This document shows, piece by piece, positions 32,125-46,655 of a stretch of 64,000 nt of DNA. A model generated the notes under the pieces. That model was not told the origin of the DNA. It was given only the letters and a program-made list of their open reading frames with translations, and made no database searches. A program made the translations under genes and the position numbers. Source of the DNA: a virus; IMG/VR virus record IMGVR_UViG_3300043446_005051, positions 1-64,000 of that record; one strand, 5' to 3'. Numbering within the stretch: the first letter of the stretch is position 1; each line of letters begins with the position of its first letter.

Positions 32125-32306
32125 AGAAAAGAATACGACGGTTGAGTGTTGAAAGGTCTCCCTCTCACCTCAGTCATTGTAGCGCAGACTCAGAAAAGCA
32201 ATCAGGATGGTGGACAGTTGAAAAAGCGTCCTCTCTGTAATGCTATTTGCATTAAAAAACTCCTATTCAAATTTGAATAGGAGTTTTAAGTGTTATTCAG
32301 TTTTAG

Positions 32307-32377
32307 TAGGGACACTGGGGATTGAACCCAGACTAACCCGTTATAAGCAGGCCGCTCTACCATTAAGCTATGCCCCC
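32307..32377 (-). tRNA. trnI: tRNA-Ile(UAU)
   Basis: Cloverleaf, acceptor GGGGGCA/TGTCCCT, anticodon loop CT-TAT-AA, no encoded CCA. Confidence 0.9.
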
Positions 32378-40917: not shown

Positions 40918-40993
40918 GACCTCCAGGTTTGTGCATCGTTGAGAGGCATAGGAGGGGTGGGACTTAAACGACGTTTGGACCGCCGTTGCCCAT
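40918..40993 (-). ncRNA. Candidate ~75-nt GC-rich two-domain RNA in the tRNA-Arg leader
   Basis: Starts just after TTGACA-N17-TAAATT; GGGC-AACGGCG/CGTCGTT-GTCC and CCTCC..TGC/GCA..GGAGG stems. Confidence 0.5.
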
Positions 40994-41066
40994 AAAAGTA
41001 ATTTATCAGATGACCCCAACTTTGTCAACTGTATTGTGCCAGTTGCAAAAGTGGCTTTTTGATATT

Positions 41067-41456
41067 TTATTTAGGATATCGAATATATGCATTACTTATT
41101 TCAAAATTACGAGTTTTACCTTTATTTGGTACAAATCCGTGTCCTGAATAAAACTTTTTAAGTTTCTCTTTATAATTCTTTTCTGGAGCTTGGTCTAATG
41201 ACATAGAAGCTCCAATTTTATCTGCGTGTTTTGTAAGCCCTTTCATAATTCGTCCTCCTACACCTTTACCTCTAAGATGCTTGGGTACCCATATATCGTG
41301 AACTTGAATGTTTGGTTTTCCTTTAAATTCTTTTTTTGAAAGATACAAATTTAAACCTTGATAACCAGGTCGTTTTTCCCATTTTCTTGAAATAGTTTTA
41401 TGTGCGTCAGGCTTCGCAGATTTAGCTTCTTTTATGAATTGCTTAAAAGTTTTCAT
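41067..41456 (-). CDS. GNAT acetyltransferase with an internal-head-protein-like leader
   Basis: IWVPKHLRGKGVGGRIM (motif A), LKKFYSGHGF (motif B); N-terminus MKTFKQFIKEA. Confidence 0.85.
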   Translation of the reverse strand: MKTFKQFIKEAKSAKPDAHKTISRKWEKRPGYQGLNLYLSKKEFKGKPNIQVHDIWVPKHLRGKGVGGRIMKGLTKHADKIGASMSLDQAPEKNYKEKLKKFYSGHGFVPNKGKTRNFEISNAYIRYPK

Positions 41457-41463
41457 AGTCGGT

Positions 41464-41907
41464 TCAGGTTAAATAAGACCTTAACTTATAAACAAAGACA
41501 CCGTGAGCTTCCATTAAATCTTGAACAAGATTTGCAGTGGCGTAACTTCTTTGATTTTCAGCTTCTTCAGAAATATCTTTTAACAATTCAACAATCTTTT
41601 GATTATCACTCAACAATTGTTGAACCATTCCTTTTGCATCAATAACTTGATTACCATTCGCTGGGCCATCAATAGATGAGACTTCAACCATTCGAGTCAT
41701 TGTTGACACAGGTCGAATATTTAAATATCGCATATGTTCTGAAATTCTATCAACCTCCTCAAACATTGCTTCATATTGAGCACCAAATAATTCATGAAGT
41801 TGTGGAAAATCAGTTCCAGTTACATTCCAATGATAGTTCCAAGTTTTTTGAAATAAAACAAATAAAGATGCTTGAGTATCAGAAAGTAATTTGTATAGTT
41901 TTTCCAT
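41464..41907 (-). CDS. dps: Dps ferritin-like DNA protection protein
   Basis: HWNVTG..FPQLHELF..QYE.....D.ISE ferroxidase signature; late promoter TATAAATA upstream. Confidence 0.92.
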   Translation of the reverse strand: MEKLYKLLSDTQASLFVLFQKTWNYHWNVTGTDFPQLHELFGAQYEAMFEEVDRISEHMRYLNIRPVSTMTRMVEVSSIDGPANGNQVIDAKGMVQQLLSDNQKIVELLKDISEEAENQRSYATANLVQDLMEAHGVFVYKLRSYLT

Positions 41908-41924
41908 TATACTTTTTTTATTAT

Positions 41925-43020
41925 TTATAAAGATTGCTCTCTGGTAACACGTTTAAAGTCTTTAAGAACTCCATCAACGAAATGAAGTCTACATCTAGGC
42001 CAATCATGCCAATCTCCATCCCACGTTGCAGGATATACTTCTATATATTTGGTGATTTTATGAGGAACATATCTTCCATTTTTTCCAGTAGGGATCCATT
42101 CAAAATTTAAAAATTTTGATTTTTCATTATATCGTTCATCATTTTTTGAAATCTCTTCAAATGTATGAGTACCAATATAATCAGGTCTCCATAGCTGACC
42201 TGCAGGGTCCAACCAATAGAGAGTCATTGTGCCGCCAATTCCATATTCAATGTCTTTTGTCTGGCAATATACGTTTGTAAACTCTTCTCCTAGATTATAG
42301 GAAGAGCGAAAATCATCGAACATACCCAATTACGAATCCTCCTGTTTTGAACTAAAATAAATTTTATAGTAGCGTTTTTTCATACCTTCTATTAAATTCA
42401 TATCATCTTCAAATCCCATATATTTAAGTAATTGATAAGACCCTTCTAATTCACTAATAAGTCTTAATACATTAGTGGGGGACCTTTCGAGTCCCCCAAA
42501 AGAGTAAATATTCATACTAAATCATTTTCAATATCCAATTCATTAATATGAACTTTTTCTCTTTTTGAATAGAGTTTTGAATAACTACAAATTTTACACT
42601 TGGGATTTCCACAATCTAAAGGGTCTTGTTTAAAGATTCGTCCAAAAGAAAGAGAATTGTCTGGAATAAATTCAAAATGTTTGTGTAACTTTTTCCACTT
42701 ATTTTGAAGTCGTTTTGCTTGATGACGTTGATAAGCAGTTTTAGCCATTCATTGAAGGTTTAGCTTTATTTAGAACTCACAAAAGTATTAATTTTATTTG
42801 CTAGTACTTCAATCTTTTCATAAGAAGGAAATTCTGGATATGCCATTTTCACTGTATTATGTGGATTCTCATTCCACAAAGAAACAATAGAATACTCTGC
42901 TTGATATTCAGACTCCGCAAGAGCCTGAGCTTGCTCAAAAATTTTAAATCGAAGTTCGTAAGGTGTCATAATTTTATTCCTGTGTGTATGATGTGTGAAA
43001 TTTGCTAATACGATTAGCAA
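41925..43020 (-). other. Four small conserved phage hypothetical genes (41925-42329, 42330-42515, 42512-42748, 42766-42969)
   Basis: Coupled ORFs; motifs MGMFD...QTKD, CGNPKCKIC, MTPYELRF. Confidence 0.65.
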
Positions 43021-43094
43021 TACCCGAGGTCGGATTCGAACCGACGACTGCTCGATTTTAAGTCGAGAACCTCATTCCGCTGGGTCACTCGGGC
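43021..43094 (-). tRNA. trnL: tRNA-Leu(UAA) with short variable loop
   Basis: Acceptor GCCCGAG/CTCGGGT, loop CT-TAA-AA, variable region only CAGTC, A discriminator. Confidence 0.88.
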
Positions 43095-43098
43095 AAAA

Positions 43099-43722
43099 AG
43101 GGCTTTAGTGCGTCTATTCCCTGGTGCATCTGTGTTATTCCAAGCTGGAACATAATCGCACATCTCGTCGTATCCGAGTTCAGATGCTTCCCCACTCATT
43201 TAATCTAATGAGCAAATCAAATAATTGAATTCACCTTCTATGCTTGCGACCCTGATTTGATCAGAATCTAGCCTCGTACATCTTCTAACTTTCTATACCG
43301 TGAATATAGTCTGTCAGAGGTCTTACGACACAATCACCCATTTTCACAGATGACGTTAGGGGCTTCGGCTTCATCAATTGCAGTTTGCCTAATGTACCAC
43401 CCGAAGGAACGATACACGGTGCTTTCACGGCGATTCCTTAACCGAAGAATCGTTTACCGTCCTATTTCTGGGATAACTACTGTAATTCACCAGTCATATA
43501 AGAAGCATTCACTATTGGCGTTGTGCTCACTCTCATATGCTACTTACGGTATCTGCTTCCGCCAAGAAGAATTAACCGATAGAAGATTGGTGGAGTTGGC
43601 CGAGGCAATCACCTCTAGTCTCCATCTTCCTTTCCCTTATACATCTTACGATGCCTGACCCTCATAGATTAGAAGTCAGTTTTCTAAGACCTTTTCAATC
43701 TTAGGGGAGGGACAATCCCGAT
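43099..43722 (-). ncRNA. Large (~620 nt) ornate non-coding RNA, ROOL/GOLLD-class candidate
   Basis: Between tRNAs, own TTGACA-N17-TATGGT promoter (43729-43757), raised GC, no credible ORF, more than 10 hairpins including GNRA/UUCG loops, 5'/3' pairing. Confidence 0.72.
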
Positions 43723-43867
43723 AAGACAACCATAGAGTAAAACTCTTGAGTTGTCAATGGTTCTGGAAAGACTTGAACTTTCTTCAGCCCCTTATAAGGA
43801 GGCGGCCTTAACCCATAGGCGACAGAACCAATAAGACAATCATAAGACCTAAATCTCAGATTGTCAA
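43721..43867 (-). promoter_or_regulatory. Two related 37-bp spacers (43721-43757, 43831-43867), each a sigma70 promoter and a hairpin
   Basis: TTGACA-N17-TATG(G/A)T-TGTCTTAT with GACAA(C/T).../...(G/A)TTGTC self-complementarity. Confidence 0.8.
43758..43829 (-). tRNA. trnI: tRNA-Ile(UAU), second divergent copy
   Basis: Acceptor GGTTCTG/CAGAACC, loop CT-TAT-AA. Confidence 0.88.
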
Positions 43868-43868
43868 G

Positions 43869-43950
43869 TCCTCGTTTTCAGACTCGAACTGAAACTCCTT
43901 TCGGAAGTGGTTTTTGAGACCACTGCGGCTACCGATTACGCCAAACGAGG
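43869..43950 (-). tRNA. trnL: tRNA-Leu(CAA)
   Basis: Acceptor CCTCGTT/AACGAGG, loop CT-CAA-AA, long variable arm TTCC-GAAA-GGAG. Confidence 0.92.
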
Positions 43951-44047
43951 TATTAAGTGAACGTGGCCTCAACCACCTTCATAGATTACCACTCACTCAG
44001 ATGGAAGTCAAGAGATGTGTGCCAGTTGAAAAACTGGAACCTTAATA

Positions 44048-44365
44048 TCAGTCTCTTCTCCTCCAACCATCATCGTTATCCCGATGAAAGAAATCAGCAA
44101 TGTCATCAGGTGAATCAAAATGAGTTCGGTGATTAGATGGGTCGGGGTCTCCTAAATCCAAAGCATTTAAAAACCCATCTAAACTATCTTCTGCCATACT
44201 TGGATTATCAGATAATCTTCTTGCTTGTCGCAACATTGTAGCAGCAGAGGGATTCGCCTTTGAGAGTTTTTCGGCCCATATCATATCTTCTAATGAGACT
44301 TCGTTGTGTGATGATATATTTTGGCAGATTTTTTCCAAACGAAGTCTATATGCAGTTGATAACAT
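44048..44365 (-). CDS. Conserved cyanophage hypothetical protein
   Basis: MLSTAYRLRLE.IC...DMIWAEKL...LGDPDPSNH...W..RD. Confidence 0.75.
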   Translation of the reverse strand: MLSTAYRLRLEKICQNISSHNEVSLEDMIWAEKLSKANPSAATMLRQARRLSDNPSMAEDSLDGFLNALDLGDPDPSNHRTHFDSPDDIADFFHRDNDDGWRRRD

Positions 44366-44393
44366 TTAAAATCTCCATATTAAACTTATTTAG

Positions 44394-45047
44394 TTATCTC
44401 ATATTAAGAGGAGTTAATCTAGATGATCTTCTTTTCTTCTTTTGCCTTGGAGAAAGAGGGCGACCTACACTTGCATATTGCCTATTGGAGTCATCAGTAT
44501 CTCCAAATCTATGATATTTATAAATGTCTTTATGAGTGTCTGATGCTGGAGTATTTGATACTATACTATGAGATGGGAACCGGTCTTCAACATTTTTTTT
44601 ATAGATATTTTTAGCCTTATTTGCAAGTCTTATTCTTTCTTTTTGAGACAATCCACTAACACTATGAGACACATTCCAATCTACCTCGTGATGGGGCTTC
44701 CCTTCAATATCTTTAAGCCGAGTGATTGTATAATATATTCCACTTCCTGGATGTTCTATTTGTGTTACTTTTTTATCTTTGGATTGATGTACCATTACAC
44801 CAGAATCAGAATGTGGGTTCACTGAGGGATTATCAGAACCGTGTTTTACTTTTTTTTCTAAAGTCCTAGATAATCGAAGTCTTCTTGACTTTACACTTTC
44901 TGGAGTTCTCGGTTCGTTTGGAGTTCTTTCAAGCTTCTCTTTTGATTTTTGCACTGGAGATTTACCTGAAGGTAAAGGTTCATCTGGTGGATAATATTTT
45001 TCAAGTATAATATTTGTTTTATCTATAAATTCTTGAAAAGTAATCAT
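44394..45047 (-). CDS. Basic protein with an internal-head-protein-like leader
   Basis: MITFQEFIDK...LE; K/R/H-rich. Confidence 0.6.
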   Translation of the reverse strand: MITFQEFIDKTNIILEKYYPPDEPLPSGKSPVQKSKEKLERTPNEPRTPESVKSRRLRLSRTLEKKVKHGSDNPSVNPHSDSGVMVHQSKDKKVTQIEHPGSGIYYTITRLKDIEGKPHHEVDWNVSHSVSGLSQKERIRLANKAKNIYKKNVEDRFPSHSIVSNTPASDTHKDIYKYHRFGDTDDSNRQYASVGRPLSPRQKKKRRSSRLTPLNMR

Positions 45048-45244
45048 TTTTGTTCGTTCCCTAAAGCATTAATCCAGACTTTTTTATAATCATAATCTCC
45101 AAATAAAAACTCATCTGCATTTGCAGCTTCACGATATGCATTTAGAATATCCTCTTCACACCATTCATCATAATTTGGATCTTGTGAGATTAGTTTTGAG
45201 TCCATTTTTTTATTTATGATTTTTTGATATTTATTTTTTAATTA

Positions 45245-45940
45245 TTAGTCATTTTCAATTCCATGTCTTTTTGCAGCTGCTGCCATTCTTGCTTGTAGTT
45301 TTGGTAAGGTCCGGCCTCTTCTTTCCTTATCTAATTTATCTCTTCTTGATTGCCTTCTTTCTAAATTTACTAAAGTAGTAAATGCTCTCATTGGAGTGAT
45401 TGCATTTTCTACATCTTTTAATTTCCCTCTATGCCTTCTTTCAAAAGCATGATAAGCTCCATGATGGAATCCCGGTTTTTCTGGTTTAAATTCACTTACA
45501 GGGCCTCTATTTGCAAGAACTAAATTTCTCGGGTCATCTCCATGAAATTTATTCTCCTTTCTTTGAGCAGTTTTATATCTTAGTCTCTCTCCAGGACTCA
45601 TATTTCTCATTATTTCACCAGAATGCTCTACTCCAGTTGCATGATGTAGGTCCATGCCTCTTTGTGTTCTAATTTTTCTTTTTCTATCTACTTTTAGAGA
45701 TTCCCTTGGAGTTAACTTACCTGTAGCTATTTTAATATTCTCTTCTCTTTTTTTAGATGCTTTGTCTTGAGTTCTTACATAACTAAGACCCCATTTTGGG
45801 TTTTCACTAGTTCCTCTTTGTTTTGGAACAAATCCATGTGGAATTCCTTTATAATGACTAATTAATTCATCTTTAGATGAAAAGTGAGGATATTTTTCAT
45901 ATTTAGTAGCTTCCTCTAAAAACTTTTGATATGTCTTCAT
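45245..45940 (-). CDS. Basic protein with an internal-head-protein-like leader and a possible HNH-like motif
   Basis: MKTYQKFLEEA; DLHH...GDDPRNL...HHGAYH; TAAATA upstream. Confidence 0.6.
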   Translation of the reverse strand: MKTYQKFLEEATKYEKYPHFSSKDELISHYKGIPHGFVPKQRGTSENPKWGLSYVRTQDKASKKREENIKIATGKLTPRESLKVDRKRKIRTQRGMDLHHATGVEHSGEIMRNMSPGERLRYKTAQRKENKFHGDDPRNLVLANRGPVSEFKPEKPGFHHGAYHAFERRHRGKLKDVENAITPMRAFTTLVNLERRQSRRDKLDKERRGRTLPKLQARMAAAAKRHGIEND

Positions 45941-45979
45941 TTCTACTGAACTATTTTAAGTATTTATCAGTTTTATGAA

Positions 45980-46055
45980 TCCGAATAACAGGATTTGAAC
46001 CTGTATTTTTCCTGCTCCCAAAGCAGGTGCCATAACCAAGTTAGGCGATATTCGG
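45980..46055 (-). tRNA. trnP: tRNA-Pro(UGG)
   Basis: Acceptor CCGAATA/TATTCGG, loop TT-TGG-GA. Confidence 0.92.
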
Positions 46056-46082
46056 GTAGACAACACTATATATGTTGTCAAA

Positions 46083-46156
46083 TGAGGCTGGAGAGAATCG
46101 AACTCTCATAGACTGGTTAAAAGCCAGCTGCAGTTGAACCACATTGCTACAGCCTC
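46083..46156 (-). tRNA. trnK: tRNA-Lys(UUU)
   Basis: Acceptor GAGGCTG/CAGCCTC, loop CT-TTT-AA. Confidence 0.88.
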
Positions 46157-46655
46157 AAGTAAACGTGATAATGAAGTTTCCCTCAACCACTCAATCAACT
46201 TACCACCGATTCAGAAAGAACGCAAGTGGATTGTGCCAGTTCAAAACGTGGTACATTAACATACAAAAAGAGAGAGAAAAAGTTTAAAGGCTTCTTCTCT
46301 CTCTTTTGATTTTAAATTTTAAAAAATGAATTACATTTTTCTTAAATTCTCAATCAAAAGGAAGCCATCAATGTGCTTGAGTTGGTACACTTCTGGTTTA
46401 TTCTTTTGATTAGAGTAAGAGTAAGTCATTTTAGTAATTTCAATTAAAGATATTTATACAGTTTTTTGAAGATTTTCAATAAATTCTCGAATTTTAACAA
46501 TTCTTTCAGGAGTATGCTCAGATGAATATCCAACCTGATGTTCCAGTAGAACATCTAAAACGTATTTTGCAGTTTCGGGCGTGGTTTCAATTCGAACTTG
46601 ATTTTTCATTTTCATATTAAAGTCTTTTATAATTATATAAAATTAAGTGTAATTG

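What the first reader, a model, noticed from the sequence alone, without database searches (positions are those of the whole stretch)
43099..43722. ~620-nt ornate ncRNA inside the tRNA cluster (ROOL/GOLLD-like) in a probable cyanophage
Seen: an ORF-free, GC-elevated stretch starts right after a consensus promoter and ends a few nt before tRNA-Leu. Hairpins include CTAAGAT/GTCTTAG, CTGACTTC/GGGTCAG, CATC-GTAA-GATG, GATTCTT/AGGAATC, CC-TTCG-GG, GTC-GTAA-GAC, CTCATT/AATGAG and GCATCTG/CAGATGC, with long-range TCCCT/AGGGA and CCCC/GGGG closure. Established: GOLLD and ROOL are large structured RNAs often found beside phage tRNAs, with unknown function. From memory only, ATACCGTAAGTA...GTGAGC...ACTGGTGAAT resembles ROOL. 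ROOL is known mainly from Firmicutes and gut lineages, so a cyanophage member or a new class would be notable.
Basis: partly seen in the sequence, partly recalled or inferred. Interest (0 to 1): 0.78.

Follow-up and report, generated by a model that had tools for sequence, protein, structure and literature searches.

The report
New large folded RNA in cyanophages
A freshwater cyanobacterial virus carries, among its tRNA genes, a gene for a roughly 610-base intricately folded RNA that codes for no protein, matches no catalogued RNA family and is abundant in lake RNA samples; its job is unknown.

Summary
Window 43100-43722, read on the MINUS strand like all 10 tRNA genes, is a conserved non-coding RNA gene of about 597-617 nt. 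It lies between tRNA-Ile(UAU) and tRNA-Leu(UAA), behind a TTGACA-17-TATGGT promoter-like site.

I found 6 distinct sequences in 5 lineages, 76-89% identical between lineages. They are the window, cultured Synechococcus phage S-CRM01, two IMG/VR contigs and metagenome contigs.

- **Structure:** the consensus fold has 179 pairs in 34 helices. 47 pairs change on both sides, against 13.4 +/- 2.8 in shuffles (0 of 500 reach it). 97.5% of cells pair, against about 40% when partners are slid.
- **Coding:** no reading frame is conserved.
- **Expression:** in contigs of four metatranscriptome runs from three studies, depth on the element is 8-499 and on flanking genes 0-5.4.
- **ROOL/GOLLD:** not supported. 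Rfam 15 gives no match on the element even at E<=10, in the window or in four homologous loci.

I read it as a new family of the GOLLD/ROOL kind: a large, ornate, phage-borne RNA in a tRNA island. Function is unknown. By sequence look-up the scan had not met this RNA on other DNA, but it has noted other, unrelated large RNAs in cyanophages.

The parts
43100..43722 (-). Conserved core of the large structured non-coding RNA (597-617 nt in the six homologs)
   Evidence: Alignments. Core lengths. 392 of 630 core columns are invariant. 179 pairs in 34 helices, 47 with compensatory change. The minus strand is the sense strand: 160 G-U cells, and 97.5% of cells pair against 83.2% if the other strand is read.
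43729..43757 (-). Sigma-70-type promoter-like site TTGACA-17-TATGGT, directly after tRNA-Ile; predicted start near A43722
   Evidence: 10 of 12 matches. TTGACA-17-TATGAT stands at the same place in L066, and TTGACA-17-TTTAAT further upstream in L069/L080. There is no clear site in L058 or S-CRM01 (read by eye). RNA contigs run 7-21 nt upstream of the predicted start, so use of this promoter is inferred, not shown.
43757..43830 (-). Upstream neighbour tRNA-Ile(UAU)
43020..43095 (-). Downstream neighbour tRNA-Leu(UAA). RNase P cleavage at its 5' end would free the 3' side of the RNA (inferred).
   Evidence: A tRNA abuts the 3' end also in S-CRM01 (tRNA-Asn) and L066 (tRNA-Met), but not in L058, L069 or L080.
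43096..43109 (-). Spacer between the possible mature 3' end (about 43110) and the tRNA; holds the conserved CUAAAGCCC
   Evidence: RNA contigs of two studies stop at 43109 (X13, followed by letters that I recognise from memory as Illumina adapter) and 43110 (X17) (tables 7, 8). This is a weak hint only, because contigs cannot prove an end.
43641..43719 (-). 5' domain: a GGGA-UUG-UCCC hairpin or P1 strand, then three hairpins (loops GAAAA, AAUCUAUG, GUAA/UUCG)
   Evidence: Helices 1, 3, 4, 5. Helix 3 has 5 of 8 pairs compensatory, helix 4 has 6 of 8. The tetraloop swaps GUAA<->UUCG between lineages.
43581..43640 (-). Invariant purine-rich stretch (AUAAGGGAAAGGAAGAUGGAGA) and helices 6-8, with a candidate local pseudoknot
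   Evidence: The loop GAUUG pairs with CAAUC in all 6 sequences, with 2 compensatory pairs (picked after the fact).
43387..43578 (-). Middle part: helices 9-20, with hairpin loops UGGC, CAAUA, AGUA and UUCG
43438..43455 (-). First hypervariable hairpin (length and sequence differ in every lineage)
   Evidence: Alignment columns 272-297 of A4.
43223..43379 (-). Five-way junction domain closed by helix 21 (span about 157 nt); loops GAAA, GNAA, CAC, CAA
   Evidence: Helices 21-28. Helix 21 has 2 compensatory pairs, helix 23 has 7 of 11, helix 25 has 3, helix 26 has 4. Covariance model R1 finds one copy per record in 4 of 4 records.
43126..43187 (-). Three-way junction (helices 30-32) with the conserved 7-nt loop GAUACGA/GAAACGA
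43136..43157 (-). Second hypervariable hairpin (11-23 nt; a hairpin of different sequence in the window, L058, L066 and S-CRM01)
   Evidence: (loop at columns 580-604), read by eye.
43839..43867 (-). Second promoter-like site TTGACA-17-TATGAT, upstream of tRNA-Ile; a possible source of read-through transcripts
   Evidence: 11 of 12 matches.

Best explanation
This is a single-copy gene for a large (about 610 nt), highly structured, abundantly expressed non-coding RNA. It represents a family not present in Rfam 15. I found it only in a small clade of freshwater T4-like cyanophages that includes the cultured phage S-CRM01.

Shown:
- The sequence is conserved en bloc and collinear in 5 lineages.
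- It folds into about 34 helices. These include a five-way and a three-way junction and several GNRA/UUCG-capped hairpins, maintained by compensatory changes.
- It codes for nothing.
- It is present in metatranscriptome contigs at depths far above its neighbours.

Inferred:
- It is transcribed with the tRNA array by the host polymerase, from a sigma-70-like promoter and/or by read-through.
- It is cut out by the tRNA-processing nucleases, with RNase P acting at the downstream tRNA.
- It then acts as a stable RNA in its own right.

Most likely mode of action, by analogy only (about 1 in 3): like GOLLD and ROOL, it is an RNA-only architectural particle made during infection, which acts on or shields the tRNA and translation apparatus.

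The confidence given (0.78) is for the shown part together with 'one RNA, new family', not for the mode of action.
For: Homologs: blastn finds S-CRM01 at 75.7% identity over 570 nt with no annotated feature beneath the match. nhmmer confirms IMG/VR and metagenome copies. There are 6 distinct sequences in 5 lineages.

Structure: 47 of 179 pairs carry compensatory change, against 13.4 +/- 2.8 in shuffles (0 of 500 reach it) and 0-5 in slid controls. 97.5% of cells pair, against 39.7-44.0% in slid controls. Strand: 160 G-U cells.

No conserved ORF.

Expression: in 4 of 4 RNA runs from 3 studies, binned depth on 43024-43759 is 177-499 (X13), 8-85 (X16), 27-118 (X17) and 13-40 (X18). Flanking bins are 0-5.4, apart from one tRNA bin (45968-46151) at up to 25.8. 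One 492-nt contig spans 43109-43600.

Conservation outruns that of proteins. The window's helicase is at best 43.9% identical in amino acids to any phage record. No neighbouring ORF of the window matches the 8.5-kb S-CRM01 locus. The RNA itself is 76% identical in nucleotides.

One copy per record in 4 of 4 records. No partial copies: every true hit of 7 viral, 1 metagenome and 1 genome scan, made with motifs from different parts of the RNA, is full length.

Kind: ROOL and GOLLD are large ornate RNAs of phages and prophages, often near tRNA islands, of unknown function (passages read in 10.1101/2024.12.08.627333 and PMC5737381).
Against: Function is not addressed by any result here.

Most helices are local. 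The longest helix with covariation spans about 157 nt. The helix that would close the whole RNA (columns 19-22 with 545-548) never varies and has one mismatch. So a single compact fold is not proven.

The candidate long-range pairings were chosen after the fact, and each rests on one lineage.

Contigs cannot show RNA ends, strand or a single molecule, and the runs were chosen because they hold this stretch.

RNA contigs include the -10 box, so the promoter assignment is uncertain.

Only 5 lineages are known, and most compensatory changes come from S-CRM01.

I could not read the supplementary tables of PMC10690425 (10,006 candidate structured RNAs from IMG/VR). Part of this RNA could be listed there.
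Confidence: 0.78

Rival explanations
1. It is not one RNA. It is a string of separately functioning small structured RNA modules in the tRNA operon, each cut out on its own, as other follow-ups of this scan concluded for other cyanophage tRNA-array gaps.
For: Most of the 34 helices are local hairpins or small domains strung in a row. No whole-molecule closing helix is supported by covariation. Earlier notes e1-6106318, e1-6076451 and e1-5894399 describe such modular arrays (AI notes, not checked here). An abiF-motif RNA sits in the same tRNA array.
Against: Order and content are identical in all 5 lineages, with indels confined to two hairpins. No scan found a locus holding only part of the element. 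There are no paralogous pieces in the 89-kb record. One RNA contig of 492 nt at depth 329 bridges most domains. A five-way junction of about 157 nt is already larger than a typical module.
Confidence: 0.12
2. It is a very divergent member of ROOL or GOLLD, which the Rfam models fail to score.
For: The genomic niche is the same: a phage, beside tRNAs. The size is close to ROOL's average of 581 nt (PMC5737381, passages read). It is rich in tetraloop-capped helices.
Against: No match to any family at E<=10 with permissive filters, in the window or in 4 homologous loci. The model here has two supported multistem junctions, against six junctions and three pseudoknots for ROOL. There is no GOLLD-like split into a conserved 3' half and a variable 5' half, since both halves are equally conserved.
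Confidence: 0.04
3. It is an anti-defence decoy or sponge RNA. It would soak up a host RNA-targeting defence protein, for example a tRNA- or anticodon-directed nuclease, and so protect the phage's tRNA supply. This is a rival for the mode of action only; it is compatible with 'one new large RNA'.
For: It sits in the tRNA array. The same array carries an abiF RNA motif (50.2 bits, gathering score 37). That motif was reported before in cyanophage S-CREM1 (PMC9964418, passages read). The RNA is highly abundant relative to its neighbours.
Against: No hairpin here convincingly mimics an anticodon arm or a known antitoxin RNA, and no Rfam motif lies inside the element. About 600 nt of strict conservation is more than a decoy would seem to need. 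That the abiF motif acts as an antitoxin is recalled and taken from AI notes, not tested here.
Confidence: 0.15
4. It is a cis-acting spacer whose structure only guides processing or transcription of the flanking tRNAs.
For: It lies between tRNAs, and a tRNA abuts its 3' end in 3 of 5 lineages.
Against: The flanking tRNAs differ in every lineage (Ile/Leu, Val/Met, Trp/Asn, none). In L058 and in L069/L080 no tRNA abuts the 3' end. It is far more abundant in RNA contigs than the flanks. Its size and covariation are far beyond those of known spacers.
Confidence: 0.04
5. It encodes a small protein on one or the other strand.
For: A 102-aa ORF lies on the + strand (43350-43658). Open stretches of up to 142 codons occur on that strand in S-CRM01.
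Against: Stop codons in 4 of the 5 other sequences and frame shifts in all 5. There is no third-position excess of substitutions. All genes and tRNAs nearby are on the other strand.
Confidence: 0.01

Closest known systems
ROOL RNA (rumen-originating, ornate, large; Weinberg et al. 2017, PMC5737381)
   Same: It is a large RNA: about 610 nt here, against a 581-nt average for ROOL. It has a complex fold, is encoded by phages, lies next to tRNA genes, is abundant, and has no known function or protein partner.
   Different: No sequence or covariance-model similarity. ROOL's octameric nanocage (10.1101/2024.12.08.627333) is untested here.
[quoted passage not shown] 2009, recalled; cryo-EM in 10.1101/2024.12.08.627333)
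   Same: A phage or prophage RNA near tRNA islands. Some members come from lake and marine metagenomes, and some lie directly beside tRNA-Met. It is large and ornate, and its function is unknown.
   Different: No model match. About 610 nt against more than 800 nt. It is conserved evenly over its length, rather than having a universal 3' region and a variable 5' region. No tRNA is embedded within it.
Phage T4 stable RNAs C and D (species 1 and 2, about 140 and 120 nt) in the T4 tRNA gene cluster (recalled, no call)
   Same: Non-tRNA stable RNAs encoded inside the tRNA cluster of a T4-type phage, co-transcribed and processed with the tRNAs. Their function is unknown after decades.
   Different: The RNA here is four to five times larger and far more complex. 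Sequence relatedness was not tested, because no T4 sequence was fetched.
Other undescribed large RNAs noted by this scan in cyanophages (e1-5943855, e1-3275803, e1-6118211)
   Same: Promoter-driven, ORF-free, covarying RNAs of 0.5-0.9 kb in cyanophage genomes that match no Rfam family.
   Different: The sequence look-up found no look-alike of this RNA in any other genome of the scan, so these are different families. They are AI notes and were not checked here.

Membership tests
ROOL (Rfam) | Match to the Rfam covariance model at or above the gathering score | tested here: not met
   No match on the element at gathering score. None at E<=10 on 42900-44000, nor in L066, L058, L069 and L001.
ROOL (Rfam) | [quoted passage not shown] | tested here: not met
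   The consensus model has two junctions supported by covariation, a five-way and a three-way. Pseudoknots are only after-the-fact candidates.
ROOL (Rfam) | Large size (about 580 nt) and a position near tRNAs in phages or prophages | tested here: met
   Core of 597-617 nt. It lies inside the tRNA array in the window, S-CRM01, L066/L091 and L077.
   The quoted strings are in the window, but no ROOL sequence was on hand to compare. The model search is negative.
GOLLD (Rfam) | Match to the Rfam covariance model | tested here: not met
   no match at E<=10.
GOLLD (Rfam) | A universally conserved 3' region with a poorly conserved 5' region; length often above 800 nt (10.1101/2024.12.08.627333) | tested here: not met
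   Conservation is even along the 653-column alignment. Length is about 610 nt.
RNA nanocage formers (ROOL, GOLLD) | Homo-oligomeric RNA-only assembly | not testable with these tools
   Needs mass photometry, SEC-MALS or cryo-EM of the transcript.
Structured non-coding RNA gene (general) | Compensatory base changes beyond controls, no conserved ORF, and evidence of transcription | tested here: met
   47 pairs against 13.4 +/- 2.8 in shuffles (0 of 500 reach it), and 0-5 in slid controls; no conserved frame. RNA contigs in 4 of 4 runs from 3 studies.
Modular small-RNA array | Modules occur separately or in different combinations in relatives | tested here: not met
   All true hits are full length and collinear. 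This holds only as far as exact-motif scans and blastn at 65-70% identity can see.
T4 stable RNAs C and D | Sequence or structure homology to T4 rnaC or rnaD | not tested
   No T4 sequence was fetched. The comparison rests on recall of genomic context only.

The most novel reading that the evidence does not exclude
This is a third, independently evolved class of phage RNA that self-assembles into an RNA-only quaternary particle, as GOLLD and ROOL do, here in cyanophages. It would be made together with the phage tRNAs, and would hold or shield tRNAs or ribosomal parts during takeover of the cyanobacterial cell. Features compatible with docking, but not evidence for it: the invariant loops UGGC, AGUA with AAACUGC, and UUCACGG with CCGUGAA, and the many GNRA loops. 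Because S-CRM01 and its host are in culture, the long-open question of what such tRNA-island RNAs do would become testable in a lytic model phage.
Probability: 0.15. Interest if true: 0.9.

Novelty: new variant of a known kind. Interest (0 to 1): 0.7.

Why it matters
Only a handful of bacterial or phage non-coding RNAs above 500 nt are known. The two phage-borne ones, GOLLD and ROOL, still have no function, although they are abundant and have striking cage structures.

An unrelated RNA of the same size and in the same niche (a tRNA island), in a different virus group (T4-like cyanophages), suggests that large RNAs next to phage tRNAs are a recurrent solution to some general problem of infection.

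This one is present in a cultured phage, S-CRM01 on Synechococcus sp. LC16. Holders of the stretch were listed in 20 runs of 11 studies, including freshwater and aquaculture samples. So genetics, RNA biochemistry and cryo-EM are all feasible.

Tried and rejected
- **Known families.** ROOL, GOLLD or any other Rfam family on the element: rejected.
- **Coding.** Rejected.
- **Other strand as the RNA.** Rejected.
- **Wider family in viral contigs.** I ran 7 motif scans.
  - True hits: 1 of 5, 1 of 23, 2 of 33, 3 of 7, 2 of 2, 3 of 49, 3 of 3.
  - The true hits were always S-CRM01, L058 or L066.
  - The rest were judged chance by blastn, nhmmer and covariance-model checks.
- **Metagenome scan.** 7 of 29 loci are true.
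- **Prokaryote genomes.** 0 of 96 motif matches are true, so no cellular copy was found at that sensitivity.
- **GenBank phages.** Of 50,697 records, 3 matched: the two S-CRM01 records, and one other that matched only the flanking tRNA-Leu.
- **Weak model hits.** Hits of 17.5-18.2 bits in L193, L204, L218 and L233. I looked at two, L193 and L218: neither locus holds a tRNA and the shown alignment (L218) is poor. I treat them as chance.
- **Syntenic protein partner.** None is shared by all loci.
- **Ro60/TROVE partner, prompted by a sub-threshold YrlA hit in S-CRM01.** 0 of 4 records.
- **Long-range and pseudoknot pairings.** Five candidates pair in all 6 sequences. They were selected for that, so they count only as leads.
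- **RNA ends from contigs.** Not decidable.
  - The lower stops at 43109/43110 in two studies are a weak hint.
  - At the upper end, the window-like contigs stop at 43729 (X13) and 43734 plus 9 loose letters (X16, X17). Contigs of other variants match to 43722 and run on for 21-22 letters.
  - The 'joints' are contigs of more divergent variants, not splicing.
- **Literature.**
  - Six searches found no description of this RNA.
  - I read passages only of PMC9964418, PMC10690425, 10.1101/2024.12.08.627333, PMC5737381 and PMC8557907.
  - The S-CRM01 genome paper (Dreher et al. 2011) is not held, so I do not know whether it mentions the gap.
  - Supplements of PMC10690425 are closed and may list parts of this RNA.

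Full report
WHAT IS THERE

All 10 tRNA genes of the window lie on the minus strand. The finding occupies the gap between tRNA-Ile(UAU) (43757-43830) and tRNA-Leu(UAA) (43020-43095). The stretch has G+C 0.437, against 0.343 for the window and 0.32-0.34 for the coding flanks.

Read on the minus strand it folds to -198.3 kcal/mol, z = -2.90, with 0 of 20 shuffles folding as well. The plus strand gives z = -1.27. A promoter-like TTGACA-17-TATGGT lies at 43757-43729, just upstream of the element.

IS IT A KNOWN RNA?

No. Rfam 15 (4227 families) reports 9 tRNAs and one abiF motif in the window at gathering score, and none of these lies on the element. With permissive filters at E<=10 on 42900-44000 there are 7 matches, none inside 43096-43756. 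The same search over four homologous loci (18,656 nt) gave 50 matches, none on the element.

RELATIVES

blastn against 50,697 phage records finds one phage, Synechococcus phage S-CRM01. It matches at 75.7% identity over 570 nt, on the tRNA strand, between tRNA-Trp and tRNA-Asn, with nothing annotated there.

I then ran motif scans, checking every hit with nhmmer, blastn or a covariance model:
- IMG/VR: two more contigs, L058 and L066.
- JGI/ENA metagenomes: 7 of 29 loci are true.
- Representative prokaryote genomes: 0 of 96 loci are true.

In all there are 6 distinct sequences in 5 lineages. Identity is 75.7-89.0% between lineages, and L069 and L080 are 99% alike. All copies are full length and collinear, with cores of 597-617 nt. 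Indels are confined to two hairpins. Each of the 4 records searched holds one copy.

The element sits inside tRNA arrays in the window, S-CRM01, L066/L091 (22 tRNAs in the 14.9-kb locus L091) and L077.

THE HOST VIRUS

The window's helicase has 437 matching phage records. Of these, 414 are named Synechococcus, Cyanophage or Prochlorococcus, and the best is only 43.9% identical in amino acids. Another part of the window matches the freshwater Synechococcus phage S-SRM01 at 68.6% nucleotide identity. 'Probable cyanophage' is therefore reasonable, but the virus is distant from cultured ones.

No ORF near the element in the window has a tblastn match in the 8.5-kb S-CRM01 locus. The RNA is thus far better conserved than its surroundings.

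STRUCTURE

RNAalifold on the six sequences gives 179 pairs in 34 helices. I counted them independently:
- 97.5% of 1073 cells form standard pairs, against 39.7-44.0% when partners are slid by 1-3 columns.
- 47 pairs change on both sides, against 13.4 +/- 2.8 in shuffles (0 of 500 reach it) and 0-5 in slid controls.

Caveats: with six related sequences the shuffle control overstates significance, the structure was derived from these same sequences, and S-CRM01 supplies most of the changes. The slid controls and the per-helix counts (7 of 11, 6 of 8 and 5 of 8 compensatory pairs in three helices) are nevertheless clear.

160 G-U cells fix the sense strand: only 83.2% of cells would pair on the other strand.

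Features of the fold:
- A 5' domain of three hairpins.
- An invariant purine-rich stretch.
- A run of local stem-loops.
- A five-way junction of about 157 nt.
- A three-way junction.
- Loops GAAA, GNAA, UUCG, and one that swaps GUAA and UUCG between lineages.
- Two hypervariable hairpins.

Five possible long-range or pseudoknot pairings pair in all six sequences, four of them with a compensatory change. I picked them after the fact from a list with many chance entries, so they are leads and not findings.

NOT CODING

The only sizeable ORF is 102 aa, on the plus strand. It has stop codons in 4 of the 5 other sequences and a shifted frame in all 5. Substitutions fall evenly on the three codon positions.

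EXPRESSION

The run search listed 20 runs of 11 studies that hold the stretch or part of it; the listed ones are labelled freshwater, aquaculture, aquatic, outdoor or sediment metagenome, one has no label, and six are RNA libraries.

I laid contigs of four metatranscriptome runs, from three studies, on 41000-46500. Summed contig depth per 184-nt bin on 43024-43759 was:
- X13: 177-499
- X16: 8-85
- X17: 27-118
- X18: 13-40

Every other bin was 0-5.4, except one tRNA bin (45968-46151) at up to 25.8. In X13 one contig of 492 nt (depth 329) covers 43109-43600 with one mismatch, and a second (depth 535) covers 43571-43729.

DNA carry-over would cover the flanks equally, so the within-run contrast shows an RNA far more abundant than the neighbouring messages.

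Limits: the runs were chosen because they hold this stretch, depth is one figure per contig, and contigs cannot show ends, strand or a single molecule.

Two studies' contigs stop at 43109/43110. In X13 the stop is followed by letters that I recognise from memory as Illumina adapter. This weakly hints at a 3' end 14 nt before the tRNA.

At the other end, the window-like contigs stop at 43729 (X13) and at 43734 plus 9 loose letters (X16, X17), 7-21 nt upstream of the predicted start at A43722. Contigs of other variants match to 43722 and run on for 21-22 letters. So read-through from the upstream tRNA promoter (43867-43839) or a start further upstream cannot be excluded. Several variants, some more divergent than any sequence I hold, co-occur in these samples.

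ONE RNA OR MANY?

Earlier follow-ups in this scan found that similar gaps in other cyanophages were chains of small modules. I took this as the main rival.

For the rival: the helices are mostly local, and the whole-molecule closing helix has no covariation.

Against it:
- Module order and content are the same in all five lineages.
- No partial copy turned up in any scan or in the 89-kb record.
- One domain is already 157 nt.
- A 492-nt RNA contig bridges most domains.

I put the rival at about 0.12. A northern blot would settle it.

HOW IT PROBABLY WORKS

Shown: a conserved, folded, non-coding, expressed RNA gene in the tRNA array.

Inferred from position and promoter-like sites: it is transcribed by the host polymerase together with the tRNAs. 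It is then released by the tRNA-processing nucleases. A tRNA abuts the 3' end in 3 of 5 lineages, so RNase P would define that side there.

By analogy only: GOLLD and ROOL share the niche, the size class and the abundance, and both form RNA-only cages. Their authors suggest the cages may enclose tRNAs or ribosomal parts (10.1101/2024.12.08.627333, passages). I give about one chance in three that this RNA acts in a comparable architectural way on the tRNA and translation apparatus. I give about 0.15 that it is instead a decoy for a host defence protein, because an abiF-motif RNA sits in the same array.

From recall, T4's stable RNAs C and D are the nearest precedent within T4-type phages: non-tRNA RNAs in the tRNA cluster, of unknown function.

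NOVELTY

Six literature searches found no description. The RefSeq and GenBank records of S-CRM01 annotate nothing there. I could not read the S-CRM01 genome paper or the supplements of PMC10690425, which lists 10,006 candidate structured RNAs from IMG/VR.

By sequence, the scan's own index holds no look-alike outside this genome.

I class it as a new family of a known kind: large ornate phage RNAs in tRNA islands. Interest is 0.7. It is real, large, expressed and present in a cultured phage, but it is narrow in distribution and its function is unknown.

Noticed in passing
window 40919-40955 (-): An abiF RNA motif (RF03085) at 50.2 bits, gathering score 37, lies directly 5' of tRNA-Arg(UCU), with no abiF-type gene evident beside it. 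The same motif was reported in cyanophage S-CREM1 (PMC9964418, Table 4).
   Followed up: partly
L069 1-487 (-), about 680 nt downstream of the element: This metagenome contig (OGVV01001129.1) ends in about 195 nt of genuine bacterial 23S rRNA sequence (LSU model positions about 1955-2154; 91.5 bits). The 99%-identical locus L080 has tRNAs there instead. An assembly chimera is most likely.
   Followed up: partly
L001 3317-3431 (-) = S-CRM01 record about 132222-132336: A sub-threshold YrlA (Y RNA-like) match at 35.9 bits (gathering score 69, E 1e-4) lies in an unannotated gap of the S-CRM01 tRNA array. No TROVE/Ro60 gene was found in S-CRM01 or in three other records.
   Followed up: partly
window 43020-43095 (-): The tRNA called Leu(UAA) is only 76 nt long, and its alignment to the tRNA model shows no long variable arm. 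tRNA-Leu(CAA) at 43868-43950 has one. Bacterial leucine tRNAs normally carry a long arm (established knowledge), so its identity is doubtful.
   Followed up: no
window 43839-43867 and 43729-43757 (-): Near-consensus TTGACA-17-TATGAT/TATGGT sites recur directly after tRNA genes. This suggests that each unit of the array has its own early-type promoter. Seven promoter-like sites were found in 1.3 kb, against 2.7 +/- 1.8 expected.
   Followed up: no
window 43282-43453, in RNA runs X13, X16, X17: Metatranscriptome contigs align on both sides of this middle part but not across it (table 5; depth up to 53). This points to more divergent lineages of the RNA than any sequence I could fetch.
   Followed up: no
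window 32306-32377 and 43757-43830 (-): The window has two tRNA-Ile genes with anticodon UAU. Another reader also noted this (e1-6114359).
   Followed up: no
window 41464-41907 (-) and L077 1920-2357: A Dps-like DNA-binding protein (phrog_3636, E 1e-32) is 90% identical in amino acids between the window and the L058/L077 phage. The ORF next to it is only 44% identical.
   Followed up: no
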